From Squalus acanthias (Eukaryota), in contig JASTWF010000810.1 in NCBI GenBank assembly GCA_030390025.1, positions 1 to 64,000 of the forward strand: 64,000 nucleotides of DNA, read 5' to 3'. The translations under genes were made by a program, and so were the position numbers. The notes beneath the pieces are model-generated. The model saw only the letters and a list, made by a program, of their open reading frames with translations. It searched no databases and was not told the origin of the DNA. Below, one piece after another: positions 1 through 63,184 of the stretch (position 1 is the first letter of the stretch; every line of letters begins with the position of its first letter).

Positions 1-3000
1 GGACACTTCCTGTGTCCCTGTTGACCATGTGTGCAGGAAGTGTATCCAGCTGCAGCTAATAGCAGACCGCATTGCGGAGCTGGAGCTGCGAATGGAAGCA
101 TACTGGAGCATTCGCGATGCTGAGGACATCGTGGATATCACGTTTAGGGAGTTGGTCACAACGCAGGTAAAGGCTGCAGAGGCAAGAAGGGAATGGGTGA
201 CCAGCAGTCAGAGTAGTAGGCGCAGTCATGTAGTGCAGGGGTCCCCTGTGGACATCCCCCTCTCAAACAGATATACCACTTTGGATATTGTTGAGGGAGA
301 TGGCTTATCAGGGGAAGGCAGCAGCAACCAAATTCCTGGCATTTTGGGTGGTTCTGCTGCACAGGACGGGAGGTAGAAGAGCGAGAGAGCTATAGTGATA
401 GGGGATTCTATTGTAAGGGGTATAGATAGGCGTTTCTGCGGCCGCAAACGAGACTCCAGGATAGTATGTTGCCTCCCTGGTGCGAGGGTCAAGGATGTCT
501 TCGAGCGGCTGCAGGGCATTCTGGAGGGGGAGGGTGAACAGCCAGTTGTCGTTTTGCATACAGGTATCAACGATAAAGGTAAAAAACGGAATGAGGTCCT
601 TAAATCTGAAAATAGGGAGTTAGGAGGTAAATTAAAATATAGTACATCAAAGGGAGTAATCTCAGGATTGCTACCGGTGCCACGTGCTAGACAGAGTAGA
701 AATAGAAGGATATTTCAGATGAATACGTGGCTAGAGGAATGGTGCAAGGGGGAGGGATTCAAATTCCTGGGACATTGGAACCGGTTCTGGGGGAGGTGGG
801 ACCAGTACAAACTGCACGGTTTGCACCTGGGCAGGACCGGGACCGATGTCTTTGCTAGTGCTATTGGGGAGGGTTAAAACTAAAATGGCAGGGGGTTGGG
901 AACCTGTGCAGGGAAACAGAAGAAAGGGAAGCAAGGATAGAAGCAAAAGACAGGAAGGACAAAGGCAAAAGTGGAAGGCAGAGAAATCAAGTGTGTAAAT
1001 CAAACAGGGCTACAGTAAATACTATTTCTAAAAGGAATAAGAGTGTTAAAAAAACAAGTCTGAAGGCTTTGTGACTTAATGCGAGGAGCAATCGTAATAA
1101 GGTGGATGAATTAGCTGCGCAAATAGATGTAAACGGATATGTTATAATTGGGATTACGGAGACATGACTCCAGGGTGACCAAGGCTGGGAATTCAACATC
1201 CAGGGGTATTCAATATTCAGGAAGGACAGGCAAAAAGGAAAAGGGAGGTGGGGTAGTATTGCTGGTTAAGAGGAGATTAACACAATAGTACGGAAGGATA
1301 TTAGCTCCGATCATGTTGAATCTGTATGGGTAGAGCTGAGAAATACCAAGGGGCAGAAAACGTTAATGGGAGTTGTATACAGACCCCCAAACAGTAACGC
1401 TGAAGTTGGGGATGGCATTAAACAGGAAATTAGAGATGCGTGCAATAAGGTCACAGCAGTTATCATGGGTGACTTTAATCTGCATATAGATTGGGCTAAC
1501 CAAATTAGTAACAATACTGTGGAGGAGGAATTCCTAGAGTGTATACGGGATGGTTTCCTGGACCAATATGTCGAGGAACCAACCAGAGATCAGGCCATCT
1601 TTGACTGGGTATTATGCAATGAGAAAGGATTAATTAGCAATCTTGTTGTGCGAGGCCCCTTGAGGAGGAGCGATCATAATATGATAGAATTCTTCATTAA
1701 GATGGAGAGTGAAGTAGTTGACTCAGAGACTAGGGTCCTGAATTTAAATAAAGGAAACTACGATGGTATGAGGCGTGAGTTGGCTAGGGTGGATTGGGGA
1801 GCGTTACTTAAAGGGTTGACGGTGGATAGGCAATGGCAAACATTTAAAGGTCGCATGGATGAACTACAGAATTTGTTCATCCCTTTTTGGCATAAAAATA
1901 AAACAGAAAGGGTGACTCGACCGTGGCTAACAAGGGAAATTAGGGATAGCATAAAATCCAAGGAGACGACATATAAATTGGCCAGAAAAAGCAGCAAGCC
2001 TGAGGATTGGGAGCAGTTTAGTATTCAGCAAAGGAGGACAAAGGGATTAATTAAGAGAGGGAAAATGGAATATGAGAGTATGCTTGCAGGGAACATAAAA
2101 ACTGAATGTAAAAGCTTCTATAGATATGTGAAGAGAAAAAGATTGGTGAAGTCAAGCGTAGGTCCCTTGCAGTCAGAATCAGGGGAATTTATAAAAGGAA
2201 CAAAGAAATGGATGATGAATTGACTACATACTTTGGTTCTGTCTTCACAAAGGAGGACACAAATAAACTCCCAGAGATGTCGGGGAACATAGGGTCTAAT
2301 GAGAGGGAGGAATTGAATGAAATCACTATTTGTAGGTAAATGATGTTAGGGAAATTGAAGGGATTGAAGGCCGATAAATCCCCAGGGCCTGATAATCTAC
2401 ATCATAGGGTTCTTAAGGAAGTGGCCCTAGAAACATAAGATGCATTGCGGGTCATCTTTCAAAATTCTATAGACTCTGGAACAGTTCCCATGGATTGGAG
2501 GGTAGCAAATGTAACCCCACTTTTAAAAAAAGGTGGTAGAGAATGAACGGGGAATTATAGACCAGTAAGCCAGACATCGTTAGTGGGCAAAATGCTGCAG
2601 TCCATTATAAAAGATGTAATAGCAGAGCACTTGGAAAACAGTGACAGGATCGGACAAAGTCAACATGGATTTACAAAAGGGAAATCATGCCTGACTAATC
2701 CAGTGGAATTTTTTGAGGATGTAACTGGTAGAATAGATAAGGGAGAAACAGTGGATGTGGTGTATTTGGACTTTCAGAAGGCTTTCGATAAGGTCCCGCA
2801 TAAGAGATTAGCGTGCAAAGTTAAAGCCCATGGGATTGGGGTTAAGGTATTGATTTGGATAGAGAACTTTTTGGCAGACAGGAAGCAAAGAGTTGGAATA
2901 AACTGTTTTTTTTCCAAGTGGCAGGCAGTGACTAGTGGGGTAAAGCAGTGATCGGTGCTACCTCCCCAGCTATTCACAATATGTATTCATGATCTAGATG

Positions 3001-3960
3001 AGGGAACTAGATGTAATATCTCTAAGTTTGCAGATGACACAAAGCTGGGTGGGCGTGTGTGCTGTGAGGAGGATGCAGAGAAACTCCAGTATGATTCGGA
3101 CAGGTTGGTTGATTGGGCAGAGGTATGGCAGATGCAGTATAATGTGGATAAATGCGAGGTTATCCACTTTGGTGGCAAAAACAGGAAGACAGATTATTAT
3201 CTGAACGGCAATAGATTGGGAAAAGGGGAAGTGCAACGAGATCTGGGAGTCCTTCTGCACCAGTCGCTGAAGGTAAGCATGCAGGTGCAGCAGGCGGTTA
3301 AGAAGGTAAATGATATGTTTGCCTTCATAGCGAGAGGATACGAGTACAGGAGCAAGGATGTCTTGCTGCAGTTGTACATGGCGTTGGTGAGACCACACCT
3401 TGAGTATTGTGTGCAGTTTTGGTCGCCTTATCTGTGGAAGGATGTTCGTGCCATGGAGGGTGTGCAGCGAAGATTTACCAGACTGAAACCTGGGATGGCA
3501 GGAATGACGTATGAAGAGAGATTGGGTCGATTAGGCTTATATTCGCTAGAGTTTCGAAGAATGAGAGGGATCTCATTGAAACTTATAAAATTCTAACAGG
3601 ACTAGACAGACTAGATGCAGGAAGGATGTTCCCGATGGCGGGGGAGTCCAGAACCAGAGGCCACAGTCTAAGGATAAGGTGTACGCCATTTTGGACTGAG
3701 ATGAGGAGGAATTTCTTCACCCAGAGAGTGGTGAACCTGTGGAATTCTCTACAAGAGAAGGCAGTTGAGGCCAATTCATTAAATATATTCAAGAAGGAGA
3801 TAGATATATTTCTCAAGGCTAAAGGGATCAAGGGATATGGGGAGAAAGCAAGGACAGGGCACTGAATTTGTATGATCAGCCATGATCTCATTAAATGGCG
3901 GAGCAGGCTCGAGGGCCGAATGGCCTACTCCTGCTCCTATCTTCTATGCTTCTATGCTTA
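1..3960 (+). mobile_element. CR1-clade LINE, near full length (5' end runs off window), decayed
   Basis: ORF1 pieces: CxxC/coiled coil (29-376) and SGNH esterase IGDSIVRG..CLPGA..HTGIND..LHL (395-877). ORF2 pieces: APE endonuclease (GVVYRPP, MGDFN, SDHN; 1366-2223) and RT (QHGF, YLDFQKAFDKVPH, KFADDTKLGG; 2583-3596). CR1 3' UTR ends in a short ttctatgc repeat near 3945-3960. Multiple stops and frameshifts. Confidence 0.95.
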
Positions 3961-25925: not shown

Positions 25926-27203
25926 TATTTGATTCTGTGAAGGTACCTATTCTCTCTAACACACTTTATCAACAGACATTTTAATAACATGCCTCTATTG
26001 GTCAATGTATGTGGCTGGAACAAATCACTGGGCGCCTACAGTCTGTTAAGTAAACAGCTGTCAACCAGCTGGGTCATGTGAAAAATGACGGTCAGATCAA
26101 TAACTTGCAAACATAACTGAATGGATGAAACAGATCAACTTCTAAGTGTGAATACGTATAACGTGGTGCCTGATGGAACGGACTGAAGCGGAGGGAAATT
26201 GCAAGCTCTTTCAGCGAGCCGGTACGGACGAGTTGGGCCGAAATGTGTTGTTTAGTGATAGAAAATTCTATGAGTTGGTCATTCTGAGAAAACGACAGGT
26301 AACAATGGTTACCCGTGACAAATTATGCGATCTACTTAAGTAACCCACTCAATGCACCCGTACAAATCCACGCAGGCACACAAGTAGCATTTGCATTAGG
26401 AAGACAACTTGCTAATAATGTGTGATAAGGTTGGATGACGTGGGTTAGGAGGAGGCTCGTATATAGCATAAACACCAGCATGGACCGATTTGTATCTTTC
26501 TGTGCTTTACATGGCCAAGAAATTGATGAAGAAAGGGAAAATAGAATATGAGAGTAAACTTGCGAGAGACATAAAAACAGACTGTAAAAGCTTCTATATG
26601 TATGTGAAAAGGCAAAGATTAGCGAAAGTAAATGTGGGTCCCTTACAGGCCGAGACTGGAGAAATTATAATGGGGAATAAGGAAATGGCAGAGAATTTAA
26701 ACAAAGACTTTGGCCGCGATCTTGCCGGTGCTCAGAGGCGGGTCAGGTGTGAAAATGACAAAGGTTGACAGCGGATAGGGAACCCGCCGTCAACTCGCCT
26801 CCAAGCGAGTCTCCCAGGTGTCGGGTGAGTCGCCGCAAAACAGACCCGACACCAAGCGGCGGGGGAGGCAATTCAAATCATTAACTGGATTGTTAAGCAT
26901 CCAATTAACTGTTATTTGAATGCTGCATTTCAATTTTGCGTGCTCCCCAACGGGTTACCGCTGCTCGGTGAACATGTCAGCTCACCAGGTCGTGAATTGA
27001 CTCTGTATTGCATTATCTGGTTACCTGACAGCTGCAGATGTTGCATAAAGGATACCGTGTTGCAGCTGTTCACTTTCAGAGCTCAGAAACCGTTGGTTAC
27101 TGCATTTGGAAGAAATATACAGCCTTGTGCAGCTTGCAAGTGTTTGGAGCCAACTCTCTATCTACTTCCAACTCATTGGAACAACCTCTCTTAGCATTCA
27201 GTT

Positions 27204-28329
27204 TTGCTTCTGTCATCTCTCTGTCACCTACCATCAGAATGTGTACGCTTTACAGTTTATCACATTGATCCTCAGATTCTGCCCACAAAGAGCCCCAACA
27301 CCAGGAGAACCAGGCACCGCAGCAGCCACAACAACAGCAAGAGCACCAACCTTCGCCTCAACCACCTGATGCTGCACAGGGCAGAGGGCATCGGCACAGG
27401 CCTGGACTTCAGCGGATGTGCTACCCCCATGGTTTACAGCCAGAGGATGAGCTTTTTCAACATGACTGAGCAGCAGTGCCAATGGAAGCTTATGCTATCA
27501 CGCCAGGATGTGGCGGGTATTTACAGATTGCTGGAGCAAGAGCAGCAGCCCAGAGTAGCGGGTGGGTATCCCTTACCAGTAGCTGTGAAAGTCACACTTG
27601 CCCTCAAATTCGTCACCTCACGCTCCTTCCAGTCATCTGCAGCAGACATTTGCGGCATCCCCGATGCCCTATTTGATAAGTCAGCAAATTATATAAACTT
27701 TGCAACTGATGAAGCCAGTGCTGCTGAGCGCTCGGTTGGCTTTGCGGCTCTAGCTGGATTCCCATGGCGGCAGGGCGTAATCGACTGCACGCATGTGGCC
27801 ATCAGGGCACCCCTTCATGACCCAGCAGTATTGATTAACCGCAAGGGCTTCCACTCCCTCAATGTGCAACTGGTCTGCATCCATAGGAAGATCATTCTCC
27901 ATGTGTGCGCCAAGTTCCCTGGGAGCTGCCAAGACTCCTACATCCTGCGCCACTACACCGTTCCTCAGCTCTTCATACCTCCAAACAGTCTTTCGGGCTA
28001 GCTGCTTGATGACAAGAGCAATCCATTAAAGACGTGGTGCATGACACCTTTGAGGAAGACAATAAAACGACCTCGAGGAACAGTATAATCAACGCCTGAT
28101 CTCCACCAGAAGTGACATAGAGCAGACGATTGGGTTGCTTAAAATGTGCTTCAGATGCCTGGACAGATCTGGAGGAGCCCTGCAGTCCGCACTAGCCAGT
28201 GTCTCCAGAATCGTTGTGGTCTGCTGTGCCCTGCACAACATAGCGCAGCAGCGAGGCTTAATGCTGCAGGAGGAAGAACGCGCTAAGTGCACAGCCTCTT
28301 TGGAGGAGGAGGAGGTGGTGGAGGAGTAG
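27204..28329 (+). pseudogene. Harbinger (HARBI1-like) DDE transposase, disrupted
   Basis: [61 protein letters not shown] motifs; in-frame TAG at 27999-28001 and a frameshift. Confidence 0.9.
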
Positions 28330-28747
28330 GAGGAGGAAGAGGAGGTTGAGGGCGACGATAAGGAAGACATTAATCAGCCAGCGCTGCCAATGCTACCAGT
28401 ACAGGAACACATTGCTGCCCGTGAGGCCAGGAATCACGTCATCATGTCCAGACTTAGCTAAGTTCACGCTACACAGACATGTGGCTGCCACATGCTTTAG
28501 CATATTGGCATCAGCCCACATTAATACCATTAACCATCCCTACAATAACCAGTCCTACCGTTCAATCTCCCCGCCATTGATGGAGTTTCAAGCATCCCTA
28601 ACCATCCACTCTGCCATTTCCAAGTGTCAACACATATTTGTGAAGGAACAGTATTTGAATGAATTAAAGATTTATTCCGCAAAATAAAATTAACAGAAAC
28701 TAGTCATTAACATTGAAATAAACACCCAAGTGACTACACTTTTAAGT

Positions 28748-30646
28748 CTATTGGCGTGTCAACTTTCTTTTCCGAGTGTTTCTACGTGGTGCAACCTCCC
28801 CTGCAGCTTCAGCAGAGGTAGAGGCAGCCTGCTCACTTCCCTGCTGCATCTTCTTAGATGTCTTTGACGGTCGTCCTCTGGGTTTTGGACCCTGTTTGGG
28901 ACCCTCCAAAGTCAGCTCCTCCTGCGACTGTGCAGTGGCAGACTCGGCCATCGCTGTCAGTGGAGGCATCTGGGGCTCTGACTGAGGGGTAGGCAATAGG
29001 GTTGAAGTGTTAGCGCTTGGAGAGGGTCCCCTACTTCCATGTACCCACCCACCATCATCCCTCTCATGGGCCATCGGCACTTCTCTGCTAGCAAGTAGCT
29101 GGAGAGCACCTTCCTGCATATCAGTGGAGCCATGAGGACCTCCTAGCAAGCACCCCTATGTGCCTTTGTTTTCTCTCCTCGATAGTTGCCCATCTATTCA
29201 CCATAGATGACCATCTATTTTGAAGTGAGACCATGTGCTCATGCGACTGGCGCATTAGATCATCCAGGCAGATGGTCATCATATCCATGGAGGAACCAGC
29301 AGTCGTGAGTGCATGCGCCACGGTGTTGCTCATGCTTGAGATGGGCTCCTCCATTCTCTGCTCACATGCAGTCACCCCCGTTGCAAACCCAGTCAGAGCC
29401 TCCTGCACTTGTTGCTCCAGCTTCAAGAACGCCCTCTTCCTTGATGGCCTCCGAGCCTCAGCGTCTGCAAGCAGCTGAGCAGAGCTAGGAGACTCCTGCT
29501 CCCTCCGACGAGGTAACTCCAATGCTGGCCCTGTCTCCACCATCTGCTCTTGCTCGTGTGTGATGTATGAGAAACCAGGTGACAACACTATTCTATCTCG
29601 CGATGGACCCACTGAGGCGATTGTATCTGTGGTGGTGCTGACTTGCCTTGTCTCAGGTGATGCTGCACCCTCAGTGGCTGGAGCCTCCTCTGAGTTGTGA
29701 TCCTCCAGTTCCTCATGGACATTGGAGAGGGGCGCTCTTGATGGACCTTTGGGAGGGTAAATACATCAGTTAAATATATGATATGTACATGGAATACAGA
29801 TACCATGATGTGCATTATGAGCCATAAATTCCAGTTGACAGTAACCACCATATGAGTGACTGATGAATGACATGTAGGTGTATTGGAAATGATTCTGGCA
29901 TCAGGTTGGTCAGATGAGCCCCTCTCTCCTTCCCAGACTTGCGGCTGGTCCACCGCTCCAGTGATCTCCAGGGCAGCCTCCTCTGCAAGAGTCAGAATGG
30001 CCAATGATTGAGGGCCACCTCCAGTCCTCTCCCTCTCCCTTTTGTTGCGGGCTCTCTTCCCCTGCAGGGAGGGAAAGAAGAGAACGTTGAGTGAGACTAA
30101 TTGAATTAGTTTAAGGAATGTCTGTGGTAGATCTTTACAGGGAGACTATAATGGAGTGGGGGTGACTGTAACAAGTCACATCCATTACTGTTGCCAGTTG
30201 GTGTCATTACATTAGAATGAGGGTGAGTGTGAGGGGTGCATAGTAAGATAGGGATCCAATAATGTAGATAGATAGAGAGGGATGGGTGAAGGTCCAAGGG
30301 ATGTTGCATTGAGTTACGATACGCATGAGTAGGGTTGAGAATGCTGAGTAATGGGGAAATGATATTAGGCACAGCAGCATGAAGGTTATTGTGGCTTTAT
30401 ACTCACTTTGTTAGATCGTAGAAGATCATGAAAACGCTTGCAGCACTGAACCCAGGTCCTCATGACCACACACCTGCCAGTTACATCCTTAGCTATTTGA
30501 AGCCTGGCTGCCATGGTCTCCTGGGGAGGTCTCTTCCGACCACTGGCAGGGAAGACAACCTTCCTGCGTGCTCGTATTCCCTCCACAAGAACATGAAGGG
30601 AGTCATCACTGAAGTGAGGAGCAGCCCTCTGCCTTTCTGAGGCCAT
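28748..30646 (-). pseudogene. Harbinger accessory Myb/SANT-like (trihelix) DNA-binding protein, spliced, disrupted
   Basis: Exon 1 30646-30407 (RAAPHFSDDSLHVLV..RTWVQCCKRFHDL, donor GTGAGT, phase 0); exon 2 starts 30061 after ctgcAG (GKRARNKRERERTGGGP..LTLAEEAALEI); downstream coiled-coil and basic C-terminal pieces in shifted frames. Confidence 0.85.
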
Positions 30647-31431
30647 TCTTGGAGCAGAACAAGGTGCATCTTCTAATGGAGCAAATTAAATGAAGTGGGG
30701 CCATGAGCCCTTCAAATAGATCGGCAAAAGAAGCGTCAGCGCTGATGTCACCTGAGCTGAACCTTGTAATCGGTTCGGTGAACGCGAAGGGCGGACTTAG
30801 CAAGGGCCATTAACGGAAAATCATTTTCTAGGAGGGATGTAGATGGCAGCAGTTCGTAGCCCGAAAACGACTTCTCCCGCCCCGGTCCGCCTCAATCGGC
30901 CAGATCGCGGCCTTTGTGTCTGTTTTCACGGAAGAAGACGCAAAAAACTTCCCGGAAATAGTGGAGAACCAAGGGTCTAGCAAGAATGAGGTACTGAAAG
31001 AAATTAGTTTTAGTAAAGAAATAGTACTGGAGAAATTAATGGGACTGAATGCAGATAAAACCCCTGGACCTAGGTTTTGCAAGAGGTGGCTATACATATA
31101 GTGGATACATTGGTTTTCATTTTCCAGAATTCCATATTTTAAGAGCGGTTCCCACAGAGTAAAAGACACGAGGGAGAGAGAAAAAATGGAACTGCAGACC
31201 AGTTAGCCTGACATCAGCAGCAGGGAAAATGTTAGAATCTATTATTAAGGATGTTGTGACAGGGCACTTAGAAAATAATAGTATGATTGGCCAGAGCCAA
31301 CGCCGATTTCTGAAAGGGAAATCGTGTTTGACGAATCTGTTAGAGTTTTTTGAGATTGTACCTAGCTGAATAGATAAGGGGGAACAGGTGGATGTGGTGT
31401 ATGTTGATTTTCAGATGGCATTCGATAAGGT

Positions 31432-33243: not shown

Positions 33244-34440
33244 CTTCTTCTTGGGCAGTCTCTCGGAACCAAAGTTGACCTGCTTCCACACTAAAAATGA
33301 GTTCTTAGGTGACTGTTGAGTCCAATGCGGGACTTACAGTCTCTGTCACAGGTGGGGCAGATGGTGGTTGAAGGGGGTGGTGGGTGGGGTGCTTGGGTTG
33401 ATGTGCGGCCCTTCTGCTGATTGCACTTGGCTTCCAATTGCTTCCGGCGAAGAGACTCAAGGTGTTCGTTGCCTTCCCGGCTGCTTCGCCTGCACTTTGT
33501 GCGGTGTTGGGCCTGGGATTCCCAGGTGGCGGTGGGGATGTTGCACTTATTCAAGGAGGCTTTGAGGCTGTCCTTTAAGCATTTCCTCCGCACACCTGGG
33601 GCTCTCTTGCCGTGTCGGAGCTCCGAGTACTGCGTTTGTTTTGGGATTCTCATATCGGGCATGCAGACGATGTGGCCTGTCCATCGGAGCTGATCGAACG
33701 TGGTCAAAGCTTCGATGCTGGAGATGTTGGCCTGAGCGAGAACACTGACGTTGGTGTGCCTGTCCTGCCAATGGATTTGCAGGATCTTGCGGAGGCAGCG
33801 TTGGTGGTACCTCTCCAGTGCTTTGAGGTGCCTGCTGTACATGGTCCATGTCTCTGAAGCATACAGGAGGGCGGGTATCACTACTGCTCTGTAGCCCATG
33901 AGCTTGGTGCTGGGTGTGAGGTCCTGGTCTTCAAACACTCTCTTCCTCAGGTGATCAAAGGCTTCACTGGCCCACTGAAGGTGCTGTTGGACTTCGTCAG
34001 CGACGTGTGCCCTTGTTGACAGTAGGCTCCTGAGGTATGGAAAGTGGCCCACATTGTTCAAGGCCTCGTCATGGATTTTGATAATCGGGGAGTGGTACTG
34101 TGTGGCGGGGGCAGGTTGGTAGAGGAACTTTGACTTATGGATGTTTAGTGTAAGGCCCATGCTTTCGTATGCTTTGGTGAAGGTGTTGATGATGGTTTGG
34201 AGTTCGAACTCAGAGTGTGCGCAGATGCAAGCATCGTCTGCATACTGTAATTCGATGACAGAGGACGGGAGGACCTTGGATCTGGACTGGAGGCGACGGA
34301 GGTTGAACAGTTTCCCATGTGTTCTGTAGATTAGCTCCACTACAGCGGGGAGCTTACTGAGGGTGAGATGGAGCATTGCTGCCAGGAAGATCGAGAAGAG
34401 CGTTGGTGCGATGACACAGCCTTGCTTGACCCCGGTCCGT
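33244..34440 (-). mobile_element. RTE-clade LINE, 5'-truncated
   Basis: 361-aa ORF (33291-34376) with LQYADDA, FPYLRS, LLYASETW, LRWTGH and C-terminal C2H2 finger CPTCDRDCKSRIGLNSHLRTH; GVKQGCVIAPTLF just upstream; (GAA)n tail. Confidence 0.92.
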
Positions 34441-34797
34441 AACGGGTGATCTCACCACCTACAAGATTTAGATGAAATGTACAAATATGAGGCAGTACAC
34501 GGCACATTTGAACAATATCGTGACCTAAAACATCAGAAACATTTCAATTAATTGTTGCTATTTTAGTGCATTTACATTTAAGGTATAGTTTAATGAAACA
34601 AATTAAAAAGTGCTGAGCTATGTTTAATGTTTGCTTGAAGAACATTTGTTTCTACATTATCTTGCCGTAACCTGCTTTCTTGTTGATGTCAAACTGTGAT
34701 GTAAGCGTGTAATTGTAATTTGGACGATAGTGTATCGAAAGCCCGTTCTTACCACACTCCCGATTTTTATTTCCATTGACTTCAGTGTGATAATAAT

Positions 34798-44812: not shown

Positions 44813-45539
44813 TTAAATAGGAGATCTCTTAAATAAGACTCTACCACTTGCTTTCACTGCAGTTTACACTTTAATAGTTGTCTCAATAAACAGGAAGTCA
44901 TAGAAGGATGTCTTAATGTTAATATAAACACACTGGAAATATTACTACTAACGAAAAATAAACGGTAGAAAGATCAGCATCTGAAAAAGAAAGCTAGTTT
45001 GAAGTCTCGGATGGAACGCCTCATAGGAGCATTGACGTCTGATCCGATTTTGGTTTTCTAACATTTTATTTTTAAATTTGAGATTGACAGAGCTGTTGGG
45101 TTGGAAGTATATATATATATATATATGTATATATTTAACAGGGCTAGATATAACCAGCAGGGTCCAGTTAAATTTTACAGCCAATATTATCATAATTTAG
45201 CTCTTTGTTCTGTTAGATCAGCCTAAGTTCTTTCCTTATTCTTTTGCCTCGACATCTTCTTATGCTTTTTGTTCTCTTTAGGTTTCCGTCTTTGGCTGCA
45301 ACCTCGGCCAATTAAAGCAGTCTATTTTCAATCTTCCCTCCAATGGTCTGTAAAATCGAAGCGTTTTACGGTTAGCTCATTACCTTGATTGGTCAGCAGA
45401 GTGATGCATGAAACAGATCTGAAAAGCAGCATAATTTTCTTCAACATTCAGTCACCAACTGAACTGTGCTCCGAATGTTTGCCTCAGACACGGTTTCAAT
45501 AGCATAAAAAGAAGTGTTTTATTGATATTTTTCCATCGA

Positions 45540-46469: not shown

Positions 46470-47185
46470 CACTTTGTATCTAACCGTACTGCACTGCCAC
46501 AGTGCAAGCTAAATGGACCAGGGCCAAGGAAGTTCTGCTATATATCTAACCAGTGCTGTAACTCCATTCAGAGTGTTTGATGGTCAGTGTTTAGCGAGAT
46601 TGACTCTGTATCTATCCCGTGGCGTAACTGCAATGGCAGTGTTTGATGGGACAATTTAGAAGGAGCTTTACTCTGTATGTAACCCAACTTCACTAGACCT
46701 GGGAATGTTTTATGGGACAGTGTAGAGGGAGCTTTACTTTGTTTCTTACGCATGCTGTACCTGCCCTGTGAGTGTTTGAATGGACAGAATACAGGGAGCT
46801 TTTCTCTGTATCCAAAGCATGCTGTACCTCCTTTGGGACTGATTCTTTGATGGGACATTGTTTACGGAGCTTTACTCTGTATCTAACCCGTGCTCTCCCT
46901 GCGATTGGTGTGTTTGTTGGATTAGGGTAGAGGAAGCTTTACTCTGTATCTCTCCCGTGCTGTACCTGCCCTGGGAGTGTTTGATGGGACAGTGTAGACT
47001 GAGCTTTACTCTTTATGTAACCCTTGCTTTACCAGTCCTGGGCATGTAGAGGGAGCTTCACTATATCTAAACCATGCTGCAACGACACATGGAATGTTTG
47101 ATGGGACAGTGTAGAAGGAGCTTTACTCTCGATGTAACCCAACTGCACTAGACCTGTAGGTGTTTGACGGAGCAGTGTAGAGGGT
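46470..47185. repeat. Degenerate minisatellite, ~66-67-bp unit, about 10 copies
   Basis: Recurrent gtgtttgatgggacagtgtagagggagctttactctgtat.taacc at 46573, 46639, 46705, 46772 and onward. Confidence 0.9.
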
Positions 47186-47412: not shown

Positions 47413-47456
47413 CCGTTCTTCTAAGTGGCGAGGACCCTCTTCGTTTACGCGTGCGC
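47413..47456 (-). CDS. IgSF VJ-C1 receptor exon 5, first cytoplasmic exon (GARVNEEGPRHLEER)
   Basis: Acceptor ttgtatttcactAG, donor CGG|GTGGGT; 44 nt, phase 1 to 0, open in frame with the TM exon. Confidence 0.65.
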
Positions 47457-47914: not shown

Positions 47915-48028
47915 CTTTACAGTTACTGAGTTGGTAACTCTTCCCAATGAAAGTGATGATGGCTAGAATTATCAGTGCACCACCTGCACATCCAGCAATT
48001 AGTAGGGGAAGGGATGGGAGTCCTTTGC
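47915..48028 (-). CDS. IgSF VJ-C1 receptor exon 4, transmembrane (GKGLPSLPLLIAGCAGGALIILAIITFIGKSYQLSNCK)
   Basis: Acceptor attttAG, donor AAG|GTAATG; 114 nt, phase 1-1; long uncharged hydrophobic stretch. Confidence 0.85.
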
Positions 48029-48869: not shown

Positions 48870-49178
48870 CTGGGTTGGAACTGGAATCAAAGTAAACAGC
48901 CACGGCTGGACTCTGCAGTGTGAGGTGAGACACCACACAGGTATATACAGCCCCGCTCTGGGCTGGCTGTGTCGTCTGCAATCTGCTGGAAGCTTCATAC
49001 ATTCCCTCCGAATTCTGCTTTATAATGGTGTTGATCCCAGTCACAATGTTGGTGTTATTTTTATACCAAGTGAAGCTGAGAGCCTCCGGGTAGAAGTCGG
49101 CCGTTTCACACACAAGTGTTAGAGTAGATGGGTCGGTTCCGGACACTTTGGGATCCAGTCTCACGGGTTCTGGTGAAA
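48870..49178 (-). CDS. IgSF VJ-C1 receptor exon 3, C1-set Ig domain
   Basis: Acceptor ccctcttccacAG, donor CAG|GTAAGA; 309 nt, phase 1-1; C1 signatures LVCETADFYP, FTWYKN, YEASSRL, YTCVVSH. Confidence 0.93.
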
Positions 49179-51579: not shown

Positions 51580-51625
51580 CTTTGTAAATAACCCCAAGCG
51601 CCCATATGTAGTGACACACAAACAT
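51580..51625 (-). CDS. IgSF VJ-C1 receptor exon 1, leader (MFVCHYIWALGVIYK)
   Basis: ATG at 51625 in acaATG context; 46 nt ending AAG|GTATTT, phase 1; 144-nt intron to the V exon; splices to give ..GVIYKVASA-AVSQSP, a plausible signal peptide. Confidence 0.75.
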
Positions 51626-53351: not shown

Positions 53352-53655
53352 NNNNNNNNNNNNNNNNNNNNNNNNNNNNNNNNNNNNNNNNNNNNNNNNN
53401 NNNNNNNNNNNNNNNNNNNNNNNNNNNNNNNNNNNNNNNNNNNNNNNNNNNNNNNNNNNNNNNNNNNNNNNNNNNNNNNNNNNNNNNNNNNNNNNNNNNN
53501 NNNNNNNNNNNNNNNNNNNNNNNNNNNNNNNNNNNNNNNNNNNNNNNNNNNNNNNNNNNNNNNNNNNNNNNNNNNNNNNNNNNNNNNNNNNNNNNNNNNN
53601 NNNNNNNNNNNNNNNNNNNNNNNNNNNNNNNNNNNNNNNNNNNNNNNNNNNNNNN
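53352..53655. other. Assembly gap (304 N)
   Basis: Run of N. Confidence 1.
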
Positions 53656-55110: not shown

Positions 55111-57840
55111 GTCAGGGCCCTCCCCCGTGTCAATTCCATTTCCCGCACTTCTACCCTTAATCCTTCTCCTCCCCCCCAGAACCATGAAAGGGTTCCCGTC
55201 ATTCTCACTTCCCACCCCACCAGCTTCCAATTTCAGTGGATCATACTCCACCATTTCCACCACATCCAGCCAATGCCGCCACCAAACACATGTTCCCCTC
55301 CCATTCCATCCCGTTTCAGCATTCTGGAGGGATACCCTAGTCCACTCTTCAATCAGCCCAACACCGCTCCCCTTCCCACGGCACCTTCCCATGCATGCGC
55401 AGCTGATGGAATGCCTGCCCTTTTACATCCTTCCTTCTCACAGTCGAGAGCCCTAAATACACCTTCCAGGTGAAACAGTGATTTACATGTACTACTTTTA
55501 ATTTAATATACAGTATTCGCTGCTCATGCTACAGTCTCCTGTACATTGAGGAGCCCAACCGCATATTGGGAGATTGCTTTTTTGAGCACCTCGGTTCATT
55601 CTGCAATTGTGACCCTGAGCTTCCGGTCGCTTGTCATTTTAATTCTCGGTCCCACACCCACTTTGACCTCTCCGTCCTCGGCCTCCTACACTGTTCTAAT
55701 GAAGCTCGAGGAAGAACATCTCTTTCGATTAAGTACTTTAAGCCTTCAGGTCTCAACATTGAGATCAACAATTTCAGATCATAACCACCGCTCTCATTTT
55801 TTGGAGAGAAGCTGTTTGTAATGATTCTGCTAAGGGCCATTTACAACTCCTCTGGACCCATCTTCTGTTTCTTTACTTGTTCCTTTACCACCCCCGTATG
55901 CCTTCCAGCATCATCCCTTTTATCATTTATTCATTGCTGCCTTCCACTCTATCACAAACATTCCCTATTTGTTCTTTCGTCCCCTCCCGCTTTCCTTGCC
56001 TCCGTACTTACTTAAACGGTATTATATCTCTAACCTTTGCCGGATCTGACGAAAAAATAACATAAGAACATAAGAAATAGGAGCAGGAGTAGGCATTCGG
56101 TCCATCGAGACTGCTCTGCCATTCAATAAGATCATGGCTGATCTTCTAACTCAACTCCACTTTCCTGCACTATCCCCATATCCCTCGAATCCCCTACTAT
56201 CCGAAAATCTATGGATCTCTGTCTTGAATATATTCAACGACTGAGCCTCCACAGCCCTCTGGGGTAGAAAATTACAAAGATTCACCACCCTCTGAGTGAA
56301 GAAATGTCCCCACATCTCAGCCCTAAATGACCGACTCATTATTCTGAGACTGTGAACTCTGGTTCTGGACTCCCCAGCCAGGGGAACTATCCCCCCTGCA
56401 TTTAACCTGTCAAGCCCTGTAAGAACGTTTTATGTTTCAAGGAGATCACCTCTAATTCTTCTAAACTCTAGAGCATATTGATCTAGTCTACTCCATCTCT
56501 CATCATAGGACAATCTCCACAACCCACGAATCAGTCTGGTGAAACTTTGATGCACTCCTTCTATGCCAAGTATATCCTTCCTTCGGTAAGGAGACCAAAA
56601 CTGTACTCAATACGCCAGGTGTGGTCTTACCAAGGTCCAACATATAATTGGATTAAGACGTCTTTAATCTTATACTCAAATCCTCTTGTAATAAAGGCCA
56701 ACAAACCATTTCCTAATTGCTTGCTGTACCTGCATGTTAACTTTCAGTGATTCATGTACAAGGACACCCAGTTCCCTCTGAACACCAACATTTCCCAATC
56801 TCTCACCATTTGAATAATAATCTGCTTTTCTATTTCACTTACCAAAGTGCATAACTTCACATTTCTCCAAGTTATATTCCATTTGCCATGTTCTTGCCCA
56901 CTCACTTAGCATGTCTATATCCCCTTGAAGCCTCTTTGCATCCTCCTCACAATTTACATTCCAACCCAGCTTTGTATCATCAGCAAATTTGGATATATTA
57001 CATTTGGTCCCCTCATCTAGATTGTACATAGCTGAGGACCAAGCACTGATCCTTGCGGCACACATTACAGCCTGCCAATCCGTAAATGATCCGTTTATTC
57101 CTATTCTCTGTTTTCTCTCCGTTAACCAATCCTGAATCCATGCTAGTATATTAACCCCAATCCCAAGAGCCCTAATTTTGTTTAATAACCTCTTGTGTGG
57201 CAGCTTATAGAATGCCTTCTGAAAATCCAAAAACACCACATCCCCTGGGTCCCCCTTATCTATTCTGCTAGTTGCAAACTCAAAAAACTCTAACAGATTT
57301 GTCAAACATGATTTCCCTTTCATAAATCCGTGTTGAATCTGCCCAATCCTATTATTATTTTCTAAGTGCCCTGCTACCACCTCCTTAATGATAGATTCCA
57401 GCATTTTCCCTGCTACTGATGTCAGGCTCACTGTTCTGTAGTTCCCCATTTTCTCTCTCCCTCTTTTCTTAAATAGTGCGTTTACATTTGCTACCTTCCA
57501 AACCGTGGAAAACGTTCTAGAATCTATGGAATTTTGAAAGATGGCAACCAATGCATTCATTATCTCTATAGCCACCTCATTCAAAACCCGAGCATGTAGG
57601 CCATCAGCTGCAGGGGATTTATCGGCTTTCAGGCCCATTATTTTCTCAATTACTATTTTTTTTGCTAATATTAATTTCTTTCAGTTCCTCATTCTCGCTA
57701 GACCCTTGGTACTCCAGTATTTCCGAGAGGATTTTTGCGTCTTCTTCCATAAAGAGTCAACGACCTGAAAATTTAACTCCGTTTTTCTCTGGACAGGTGC
57801 TGTTAACCTGCTGAGAATTTCGAGCTTTATTTGTTTTTAT
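55110..57840 (+). mobile_element. Penelope-like element 3' part (GIY-YIG remnant and terminal repeat), split by a CR1 insertion
   Basis: RALPRVNSISRTS..RVPVILTSHPTS; FTCTT.NLIYSIRCSC..LYIEE..GDCFFEHL..LPVACHFNS..PSGLNIEINNF; terminal segment resumes at ~57755. Confidence 0.8.
56058..57754 (-). mobile_element. 5'-truncated CR1 LINE
   Basis: (aacataag)n tail at ~56058-56075; RT ORF 56835-57638 (QHGF, FLDFQKAF, KFADDTKLG). Confidence 0.93.
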
Positions 57841-62045: not shown

Positions 62046-63022
62046 CAACCAACTGATTCCCTGTTCACTGAGATTAATTTTATTCCTTGAACCCAATCCA
62101 ATCCCTATGGCCAGAATTCAATATAAAGGAAAATCGAGTGCAAACCTGTTGTCTATTCTCTAGCGCCCATTTTGCGCTATCGCTCAAGACGAATTTATAC
62201 CCGATGAAGATTAAATGCACATTCCTATTAATTTTCAAATAACTCAAGTTACTGATACTTGAGCGATCACGGTGTTGTGATTAAGGATTTATCTATCAAT
62301 CGTGAAAACGCTTTAAATCCAACATTTTCCAAAGCTGCATAGAATTCAAGCAGCACAAAACAGCAACTACGAAATAGAAGTCCGAACACGAATCGGTTGC
62401 CTGGCCTTTGAACGGCTGGGACCTGTTAGAGCAAAGCTTGGGCGGCGTGTCAGTGGGTTTTTAGAATCTATTTCATCTGCAGCTTCAAAAATAAGGCGAA
62501 TGGGGCAGACAGACAGGAGCCCGCTTCTAATTCATGCTGGACGTTAGTTGCTAACTATTTCTAAACTGGGGCTCCCCACCCTTCTTCTAAGAATAGTTGC
62601 AATTATTTTCCCAGTTACTGATGTTAGGTTAATGAGCATCTAGTTAGTTAAACACAAATAAAACGGGTTCCGCATTGGCGCAAATATTACTTGGCTTTTC
62701 CTTCCGTTAAAATAACGTCTGCTCTTTGATTTTTCATCTGTAGCTGAGCATACTCCGTGCTCTTATCCTTAAAATTAGGGTTTGCTGTTTTCTTCGAGCC
62801 TGTCATGTCGAGAGCAGCGTAGGTCAACTTATTATCAGGCCCCCTTTGCTTGGTCTGTGAAATCAATATTTGGAAATATCATTACTTCGACATTGTACTT
62901 GTTTATAGTCTAATATTTAGCAATTTCATTGGAATAGCTGGATCCTCGCAGAAATAGCGAGGATATAAATGATGAATTAAATATAAAAGATTACCATAGT
63001 ACTATTCAAGGTCTTTCTTACA

Positions 63023-63184
63023 CTATCCTGCATGCCCATTAATTACAGTTAATCTTTGTCTCTTTGTTCTGCTCCCCAGCCCTACCTGGGCATACACTGT
63101 CCTCTCTTGATGCTTTGGTCTTGGACCTTTCCGGGACTTGGTCAGATCTAATGTGGCATAAGGCGTCATCACTTCGGCTGGTCC
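63023..63184 (-). CDS. Terminal cytoplasmic exon with two ITIM/ITSM-like motifs, from an immune receptor gene lying beyond the window end
   Basis: Strong acceptor ttttgcccttcctcccatgcAG; phase 0 reads GPAEVMTPYATLDLTKSRKGPRPKHQERTVYAQVGLGSRTKRQRLTVINGHAG*; TPYATL and TVYAQV with tyrosines 21 residues apart. A CAG|GTAGGG site after YAQ could be an alternative end. Confidence 0.7.
   Translation of the reverse strand, partial: GPAEVMTPYATLDLTKSRKGPRPKHQERTVYAQVGLGSRTKRQRLTVINGHAG

What the first reader, a model, noticed from the sequence alone, without database searches (positions are those of the whole stretch)
63023..63184. Orphan ITIM/ITSM exon upstream implies a tandem cluster of inhibitory VJ-C1 receptors
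Seen: a phase-0 terminal exon encoding TPYATL and TVYAQV on the same strand, 11.4 kb upstream of the leader exon. Its phase matches the phase-0 end of the VJ-C1 gene's cytoplasmic exon at 47413. Known: paired TxYxxL/V motifs about 20-25 aa apart recruit SHP-1/2 or SAP-family SH2 proteins in PD-1, SIRPa and SLAM receptors. Inference: this is the tail of a neighbouring paralogue, so the locus may be a multigene family of antigen-receptor-like checkpoint or NK-type receptors. This is the best candidate for an undescribed system in the window.
Basis: partly seen in the sequence, partly recalled or inferred. Interest (0 to 1): 0.8.

Follow-up and report, generated by a model that had tools for sequence, protein, structure and literature searches.

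The report
Shark inhibitory V-C1 receptor cluster
These exons encode the signalling tail of one member of a clustered family of antibody-like but non-rearranging cell-surface receptors in sharks, rays and chimaeras, which probably act as immune brakes and sit beside short-tailed sister genes.

Summary

The exon starts at 63184 (minus strand, phase 0) and is internal, not terminal.

A profile of the two exons found 21 proteins: 20 carry this tail, 18 of them with V and/or C1 domains. The family search gave 34 hits from ten chondrichthyan species. All 8 H. perlo proteins, including orthologues of both window genes, share one contig length.

The downstream VJ-C1 gene has no tyrosine tail. Its last exon is a decayed copy of the terminal exon, with the stop codon in the ITIM-tyrosine position.

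It probably works like SIRPα (SHP recruitment; inferred), but has one C1 domain and SIRP orthology is unproven. The upstream ectodomain lies outside the window. Ten literature searches found no description; key papers were unavailable.

The parts
63086..63184 (-). Tail exon A of the upstream receptor gene (phase 0-0, 33 codons): Y1 in TPYATL (63166-63149) and Y2 in TVYAQ (63100-63086); the exon of the finding, with its true 3' end
   Evidence: splice sites; homology to H. perlo P0037; junction in homologues
62855..63085 (-).
   Evidence: the read-through adds 0 to the alignment score with P0037 (136 vs 136)
62687..62854 (-).
   Evidence: (15 identical columns with exon A)
62079..62084 (-). First AATAAA downstream of exon B's stop (about 600 nt); candidate poly(A) signal, unverified
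51580..51625 (-). Leader exon of the downstream short-tailed VJ-C1 gene
   Evidence: matches the N-terminus of P0003
51124..51435 (-). V exon with the G strand (GxGxxLxV, J-like) in the same exon; no RSS nonamer found in 45-64 kb
   Evidence: (Pfam V-set 9.1e-11)
48870..49178 (-). C1-set exon
   Evidence: (Pfam C1-set 1.4e-13)
47915..48028 (-). Transmembrane exon, no charged residue in the membrane core
47413..47456 (-). First cytoplasmic exon (44 nt, ends in phase 0)
45312..45347 (-). Last coding exon of the short-tailed gene (11 codons plus stop); decayed copy of exon B whose stop codon occupies the ITIM-tyrosine position; similarity to exon B continues into the 3' UTR to about 45190
   Evidence: (206/286 identical to P0003, same C-terminus)

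Best explanation
Exons A and B are the last two exons of a gene whose 5' part lies to the right of the window. It encodes a type I membrane receptor with one germline-joined VJ-type domain, one C1 domain, an uncharged transmembrane helix and an unstructured tail of about 110 residues with four tyrosines (five in most relatives). It is one member of a head-to-tail cluster found in chimaeras, sharks and rays. The tail is built from a duplicated module of about 33 codons, and relatives carry from one to several modules. SHOWN from sequence: exon structure, the family, tail-ectodomain linkage in relatives, and paralogy of exon B with the last exon of the neighbouring gene. INFERRED from same-contig lengths and gene numbering: clustering. 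INFERRED from established ITIM biology: ligand binding to the V domain leads to Src-family phosphorylation of the tail; the Y3/Y4 pair (23 residues apart), perhaps helped by Y1, engages the tandem SH2 domains of SHP-1/SHP-2 and damps activation of the leukocyte. The short-tailed neighbour lost its ITIM by a stop codon at the tyrosine position and most likely acts as a non-signalling decoy, competitor or adhesion partner. Ligand and cell type are unknown.
For:: a profile of exons A and B gave 21 hits in 1.84 billion representatives; 20 of 21 carry this tail and 18 of those 20 have Pfam V and/or C1 domains, 9 both; the spliced tail is 67/85 identical to H. perlo P0037 (score 346); the window's VJ-C1 protein is 206/286 identical to H. 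perlo P0003; of 32 junction-like sites in homologues, 20 continue with Thr as exon B does; 34 family hits; 8 of 8 H. perlo proteins share longest-contig length 66547297 (P0003 and P0037 among them), 6 of 6 Heterodontus proteins share 99651266, the 4 Callorhinchus proteins with a contig length share 18121395, and gene ids LOC103185940...943 and ...949 are close. P0008 is a model with a tail of this type fused in front of a V domain, as head-to-tail neighbours would give; the neighbour's last exon matches exon B at 19 of 36 nt from the acceptor (0 of 1919 other acceptors reach this) and scores 84 locally (1 of 2000 shuffles); model of relative P0034 shows two beta-sandwich domains, one long helix (224-261) and a low-confidence tail. 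Motif definitions and the two-SH2 binding model: PMC12151841 (passages); SIRPα four-tyrosine tail and SHP recruitment: PMC8281132, PMC13503985 (passages).
Against: The ectodomain exons of this gene are not in the window; the 816 nt upstream of exon A give only background scores (27-42) against relatives. No transcript data were seen; all relatives are predicted models. Only Y3 meets a strict definition: Y1 and Y4 have Thr at -2 with Leu at +3 (neither strict ITIM nor strict ITSM) and Y2 lacks the +3 hydrophobic residue after splicing. The fifth tyrosine conserved in relatives is Leu here. A shared contig length shows a shared chromosome or scaffold, not adjacency. A word-based search with exon B alone found nothing. 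A protein profile of exon-B-type segments did not detect the decayed copy in the neighbour; that homology rests on DNA tests. No functional test exists.
Confidence: 0.8

Rival explanations
1. One reading: exon A is terminal, is read through the donor to the stop at 63023, and gives a two-tyrosine tail ending in a strict ITSM (TVYAQV) that could bind SAP-family adaptors. As a minor intron-retention isoform this would be a switch between two kinds of tail.
For: The frame stays open for 20 codons past the donor. The intron start is homologous to the coding continuation of exon B. TVYAQV fits TxYxxV/I and has the hydrophobic pY-1 residue that PMC12151841 names as needed for SH2D1A binding. One homologue model (P0011) keeps Val-Gly after the motif.
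Against: Good donor at 63086; intact, conserved exon B in phase; the read-through adds nothing to the match with the orthologue; none of the 20 tail homologues ends with such a peptide.
Confidence: 0.07
2. The two exons are a relic of a pseudogene or a detached tail with no functional ectodomain in this species.
For: The ectodomain cannot be seen; the fifth tyrosine is lost; tandem receptor clusters often hold pseudogenes (general knowledge); some homologue models look truncated (P0033, P0031).
Against: Both exons have open frames, canonical splice sites and 79% identity to the H. perlo orthologue, higher than the 72% of the intact neighbouring gene.
Confidence: 0.08
3. The family is the cartilaginous-fish branch of the SIRP family (true orthologues), the ITIM members being CD47-sensing 'don't eat me' receptors of myeloid cells. 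This concerns ancestry and ligand and is compatible with the gene anatomy above.
For: NCBI most often names the long-tailed members SIRPα-like. Atlas feature hits at 0.95 include two SIRPα clusters. SIRPα is the best non-immunoglobulin PDB match to the family profile (108.5 bits in total). The tail has two tyrosine pairs, as SIRPα has.
Against: One C1 domain instead of two. The V-C1 stretch scores higher against antibody light chains (72-73 bits) than against SIRPα (64.6). NCBI gives other members six other names. No tree with SIRP references and no synteny could be tested.
Confidence: 0.25
4. The exons belong to an unrelated gene, for instance a transmembrane adaptor without an Ig ectodomain (SIT/LST1-like).
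For: Two hits score weakly to Pfam SIT, below its cut-off; Atlas feature hits for the tail alone are C1orf162/LST1 at 0.79-0.80, which is chance level.
Against: The closest tail (P0037) sits behind a family-type C1 domain and TM; 18 of 20 tail homologues have Ig domains; exon B is paralogous to the last exon of the adjacent VJ-C1 gene.
Confidence: 0.03

Closest known systems
SIRP family (SIRPα/SHPS-1, SIRPβ1, SIRPγ)
   Same: Non-rearranging V plus C1-set ectodomain; four-tyrosine inhibitory tail; clustered paralogues with and without signalling tails (PMC8281132, PMC13503985, passages). Most frequent automatic NCBI name for the long-tailed members.
   Different: One C1 domain, not two; tail assembled from duplicated exons with variable copy number; no central transmembrane lysine in 35 aligned members, where SIRPβ1 has one (recalled); CD47 binding and orthology untested.
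UrIg / UrIg2 (elasmobranch non-rearranging VJ-C1 genes)
   Same: Shark genes with a single-exon VJ domain followed by C1 domains; UrIg2 is the top PDB hit by summed score.
   Different: UrIg2 has nine C1 domains and forms disulfide-linked Fc-like dimers; the paper has no occurrence of 'ITIM' or 'inhibitory' (PMC12227049). The high score is a sum over three domains; the V-C1 stretch alone scores 55.7 bits.
PD-1 and the CD28 family (CD28HL3)
   Same: ITIM followed by an ITSM-like motif in the tail; present in cartilaginous fish (PD-1).
   Different: These have a single V domain and no C1 (PMC11599192); the PD-1 consensus (I/V)(D/E)YG(E/V)L(D/E)F and (T/V)EYATIx(F/Y) (PMC12151841) is not met.
NITR (bony fish) and MDIR (skate) immune-type receptor families
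   Same: Lineage-specific tandem families of Ig receptors with inhibitory and non-inhibitory members (recalled, not tested).
   Different: They have V, V-I or CD300-like domains rather than C1-set (recalled); not compared here.
B7-H6 (NCR3LG1) and tapasin-related protein
   Same: V-C1 pair; used as automatic names for some members; B7-H6 is among the tied two-domain fold matches (Z 13.9, rmsd 4.9, 192 aligned).
   Different: Neither is in the top 60 PDB sequence matches of the family profile; neither is known to carry such a tail (recalled).
Tetrapod VJC1 genes (Ohta et al. 2019) and PRARP
   Same: Germline-joined VJ with C domains, regarded as relics of an antigen-receptor precursor (as cited in PMC10751288).
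   Different: Could not be compared: the paper was not held. This is the main risk to novelty.

Membership tests
ITIM/ITSM-bearing inhibitory receptor | At least one strict ITIM (S/I/V/L)xYxx(I/V/L) in the cytoplasmic tail | tested here: met
   LTYAAL in exon B; definition from PMC12151841
ITIM/ITSM-bearing inhibitory receptor | Strict ITSM TxYxx(V/I) | tested here: not met
   TPYATL and TEYAQL have Leu at +3; TVYAQV exists only unspliced. Close relatives have TEYAEI or TEYAQI.
ITIM/ITSM-bearing inhibitory receptor | Tyrosine phosphorylation, SHP-1/2 recruitment and inhibition | not testable with these tools
   needs pull-downs and reporter assays
Chondrichthyan V-C1-TM family defined here | Tail homologous to tails of family members with V/C1 ectodomains | tested here: met
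Chondrichthyan V-C1-TM family defined here | Own V, C1 and TM exons upstream of exon A | not testable with these tools
   the window ends 816 nt upstream; no eukaryotic genome collection was available
SIRP | One V-set plus two C1-set domains | tested here: not met
   full-length members have one V and one C1; SIRPα layout from PMC8281132
SIRP | Four-tyrosine inhibitory tail (SIRPα) | tested here: met
   four tyrosine motifs over exons A and B
SIRP | Ectodomain closer to SIRP than to other V-C1 proteins | tested here: inconclusive
   profile: light chains 72-73 bits, SIRPα 64.6, UrIg2 55.7; Atlas 0.95 to SIRPα and to unnamed V-C1 clusters alike; fold searches tied among many Ig proteins
SIRP | Activating partner with a central transmembrane lysine (recalled for SIRPβ1) | tested here: inconclusive
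   none in 35 aligned members; 5 have Arg or Lys near the outer end of the helix (P0006, P0031, P0041, P0045, P0047); the sample of the family is incomplete
SIRP | CD47 binding; synteny with tetrapod SIRP loci | not testable with these tools
   no flanking genes in the window; no binding data
PD-1 / CD28 family | Single extracellular V domain and PD-1 motif consensus | tested here: not met
   C1 domain present in relatives; consensus of PMC12151841 not matched
UrIg / UrIg2 | VJ followed by several C1 domains forming Fc-like dimers | tested here: not met
   one C1 only; per-domain scores of the window's C1 against UrIg2 are 20-28 bits
Rearranging Ig/TCR locus | V and J split and flanked by recombination signal sequences | tested here: not met
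   V and the G strand are in one exon; no nonamer and no heptamer next to the V exon in an exact-match scan of 45-64 kb
Tetrapod VJC1 / PRARP genes | Orthology by sequence and synteny | not tested
   paper and sequences not available

The most novel reading that the evidence does not exclude
This is an unrecognised, more than 400-million-year-old paired-receptor complex of cartilaginous fish: germline-joined VJ-C1 receptors whose signalling is tuned by gain and loss of a tyrosine-motif exon module (one to several copies, or none through a stop at the ITIM tyrosine), with a few short-tailed members bearing an outer-membrane Arg/Lys as activating partners. It would be the missing NK/myeloid 'self-sensing' receptor family of sharks and a living model of the inhibitory VJ-C1 receptor from which SIRPs and rearranging antigen receptors diverged. 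It may be homologous to the similarly named genes interleaved with KLR lectin genes on reedfish chromosome 12, which would tie it to an ancestral NK complex.
Probability: 0.3. Interest if true: 0.82.

Novelty: new variant of a known kind. Interest (0 to 1): 0.56.

Why it matters
The innate inhibitory and NK-type receptors of cartilaginous fish are poorly known (my background knowledge). Genes with an unsplit VJ exon are sought as relatives of the antigen-receptor precursor (PMC12227049). This family gives named, testable candidates in ten species, hidden in databases under at least seven inconsistent automatic names. It also shows within one window how an inhibitory receptor became a short-tailed paralogue. 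The mechanism itself (ITIM to SHP) is conventional, and the genes are already in RefSeq as predicted models, so the gain is a family definition and an evolutionary question made testable, not a new kind of system.

Tried and rejected
1. Word-based search with exon B alone against longer proteins: 7 candidates, none at E<=10. The full HMMER search then found the family, so this was a sensitivity limit.
2. Pfam has no model for either tail exon; Rfam found nothing in the window.
3. A candidate extra cytoplasmic exon of the VJ-C1 gene at 45418-45384 was rejected because skipping it reproduces the H. perlo C-terminus.
4. The idea that A/B splice onto the window's VJ-C1 gene was rejected: they lie upstream on the same strand.
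5. No further V, C1 or tail copies in the window by tblastn and blastn.
6. Fold searches with the P0034 model did not discriminate: Foldseek returned TCR, light chains and PD-L1 at similar E-values; the 50 VIA-align rows span Z 14.7-12.9 and list no SIRP, which is inconclusive.
7. Atlas search of the tail alone was at chance level.
8. The trees have no outgroup and say nothing on the family's origin. Left out: P0001, P0002, P0028, P0042, P0046, P0049, P0050 and rows under the score or coverage cut-off. P0038 and P0039 were wrongly labelled 'short' there; both have tyrosine motifs.
9. P0028 (papain-like protein with repeats) was dropped as a chance hit.
10. Cluster-member listing (accessions, further names) was not available, so gene coordinates and adjacency in relatives stay unchecked.
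11. Literature: ten searches gave no paper describing this family. The supplementary tables of PMC3964593 had no hit for SIRP, ITIM or CD47, but its main supplementary PDF could not be read. Ohta et al. 2019 was not held.
12. No complex prediction was run.

Full report
1. Observation. The minus strand of 63023-63184 translates to 53 residues and a stop, with TPYATL at 63166 and TVYAQV at 63100. The acceptor is good and the phase is 0. A six-frame scan, however, showed a second motif pair in the same frame, LTYAAL at 62827 and TEYAQL at 62758, in an exon 62854-62687 that ends in a stop. Exon A has a donor at 63086 matching 7 of 9 consensus positions, like four of the five donors of the neighbouring gene, and the intron is 231 nt. 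The two exons are duplicates of each other (15 identical columns; DNA score 77, reached by 3 of 2000 shuffles). Motifs alone are weak evidence: loose pairs occur 5 times against 2.53 expected, while a stricter pattern chosen after the fact occurs twice, which 0 of 200 simulations reached.

2. The neighbouring gene. Leader 51625-51580, V 51435-51124, C1 49178-48870, TM 48028-47915 and a 44-nt cytoplasmic exon ending in phase 0 at 47413 form one frame; Pfam confirms V-set and C1-set. The V exon's 5 hits among 204 candidates are all shark proteins at 65-75% identity. With a last exon starting at 45347 the protein is 286 residues, 206 identical to the 286-residue Heptranchias perlo P0003, with the same C-terminus. 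It has no tyrosine motif. V and the J-like G strand share one exon, and no RSS nonamer was found. The rest of the window, as far as examined, is LINE and Harbinger-type repeat DNA, with no further V, C1 or tail copies.

3. What the tail belongs to. A word-based search with exon B failed. A full HMMER search with a profile of both exons returned 21 proteins. Twenty carry this tail; 18 of the 20 have V and/or C1 domains and 9 have both; one hit was a chance match to a repeat. Their C1 domains are 33-52% identical to the window's C1 where scored. In homologues the residue after the second motif is Thr at 20 of 32 junction-like sites and Val at one. Exon A is therefore penultimate, and the tail has four tyrosines: Y1 (TPYATL), Y2 (TVYAQ plus Thr), Y3 (strict ITIM) and Y4 (ITSM-like). 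A fifth tyrosine seen in most relatives is Leu here.

4. A cluster. A family alignment retrieved 34 proteins at E<=1e-20; 32 show a chondrichthyan species name (ten species: chimaera, sharks, rays) and two show only accession numbers close to a Callorhinchus entry. All 8 H. perlo proteins share one longest-contig length, including the orthologues of both window genes; so do 6 of 6 Heterodontus proteins and the 4 Callorhinchus proteins for which a length is given, and Callorhinchus gene ids are close together. This shows a shared chromosome or scaffold; adjacency is inferred. Tails vary: of the 8 H. perlo proteins, 4 have several tyrosine motifs, 1 has one and 3 (two of them isoforms) have none; some relatives have extra modules (P0008, P0009, P0013, P0034). 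In both V and C1 trees the window gene falls in a 7-member short-tailed clade (100/97), and P0037 falls in a separate C1 clade (100/96) (no outgroup). No central transmembrane lysine occurs in 35 aligned members; five have Arg or Lys near the outer end of the helix, among them the very short-tailed P0041.

5. The short-tailed gene descends from an inhibitory one. In register from the acceptor, its last exon matches exon B at 19 of 36 nt, which none of 1919 other minus-strand acceptor-like sites reaches; the local DNA score of 84 was reached by 1 of 2000 dinucleotide shuffles. Its stop codon lies in the codon where exon B has the ITIM tyrosine, and P0003 ends at the same place, so the change predates the split of the two lineages. 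A protein profile did not detect the relic. This is in-window evidence that the two genes are paralogues.

6. Mechanism. By established ITIM biology (PMC12151841, PMC13503985 and PMC8281132, passages read) the likeliest action is ligand-triggered phosphorylation of the tail and recruitment of SHP-1/SHP-2 through the Y3/Y4 pair. This is inferred; ligand, cell type and binding were not tested. SAP binding is unlikely for the spliced form: Y4 has Glu at pY-1 and Y2 lacks the +3 residue. An AlphaFold model of relative P0034 (35 sequences, mean pLDDT 72.9) gives two Ig domains, a membrane helix and a disordered tail.

7. Comparison with known families. It works like SIRPα but is not shown to be a SIRP: one C1 domain instead of two, and the V-C1 stretch scores 72-73 bits against antibody light chains, 64.6 against SIRPα and 55.7 against UrIg2. 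Atlas features put SIRPα clusters and unnamed V-C1 clusters level at 0.95; fold searches were tied. It is not PD-1 or a CD28-family member (PMC11599192, passages), nor UrIg (PMC12227049, passages). NCBI names members SIRPα-like, SIRPβ1-like, tapasin-related-like, NCR3LG1-like, Ig lambda-like, CD276 homolog or MHC II beta-like, so no family is recognised in annotation.

8. Novelty. Ten searches found no description. Passages of PMC10751288, PMC6795676 and PMC8236899 do not mention it. The library lacks most subscription papers. Ohta et al. 2019 on VJC1 genes was not held (nothing read; title seen), and the main supplementary PDF of the elephant shark genome paper could not be read; either may cover this family. 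A gene table in the supplement of PMC10751288 lists genes with the same mix of automatic names among KLR lectin genes on reedfish chromosome 12; homology was not tested.

9. Verdict. New variant of a known kind (clustered inhibitory/paired Ig receptors). Interest 0.56; 0.82 if it proves to be the undescribed NK/myeloid receptor complex of cartilaginous fish (probability about 0.3).

Noticed in passing
window 45347-45190, minus strand: The last exon and 3' UTR of the short-tailed VJ-C1 gene are a decayed copy of exon B; the stop codon sits at the ITIM tyrosine, and a second stop in another frame may mark the second tyrosine motif (by eye).
   Followed up: yes
window 62722-62687, minus strand: The fifth, C-terminal tyrosine kept in most relatives (P0037, P0010, P0014, P0019) is Leu in this genome.
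   Followed up: partly
P0041, also P0006, P0031, P0045, P0047: Arg or Lys near the outer end of the transmembrane helix; P0041 has an 8-residue tail and is a candidate activating member.
   Followed up: partly
P0008: Gene model with a tail of this family placed in front of a V domain, probably two head-to-tail neighbours fused by annotation.
   Followed up: no
PMC10751288 supplement, reedfish NC_041405.2 about 7.4-12.5 Mb: SIRPα-like, tapasin-related-like, CD276-like and NCR3LG1-like genes interleaved with KLR/NKG2/CD69-like lectin genes; possibly a related cluster in a basal ray-finned fish. Names only.
   Followed up: partly
window 27195-30685: Harbinger-type element: DDE_Tnp_4 nuclease on the plus strand (1.2e-10) facing a Myb/SANT-like frame on the minus strand.
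   Followed up: partly
window 1270-3862, 33294-34451, 56838-57680 and others: LINE fragments with endonuclease and reverse-transcriptase domains; one lies between the two receptor genes.
   Followed up: partly
window 46543-47042: Tandem repeat of period 67 (7.4 copies) in the intron after the first cytoplasmic exon.
   Followed up: no
window 53352-53655: Assembly gap of 304 N between the two receptor genes, so the 11-kb spacing is approximate.
   Followed up: no
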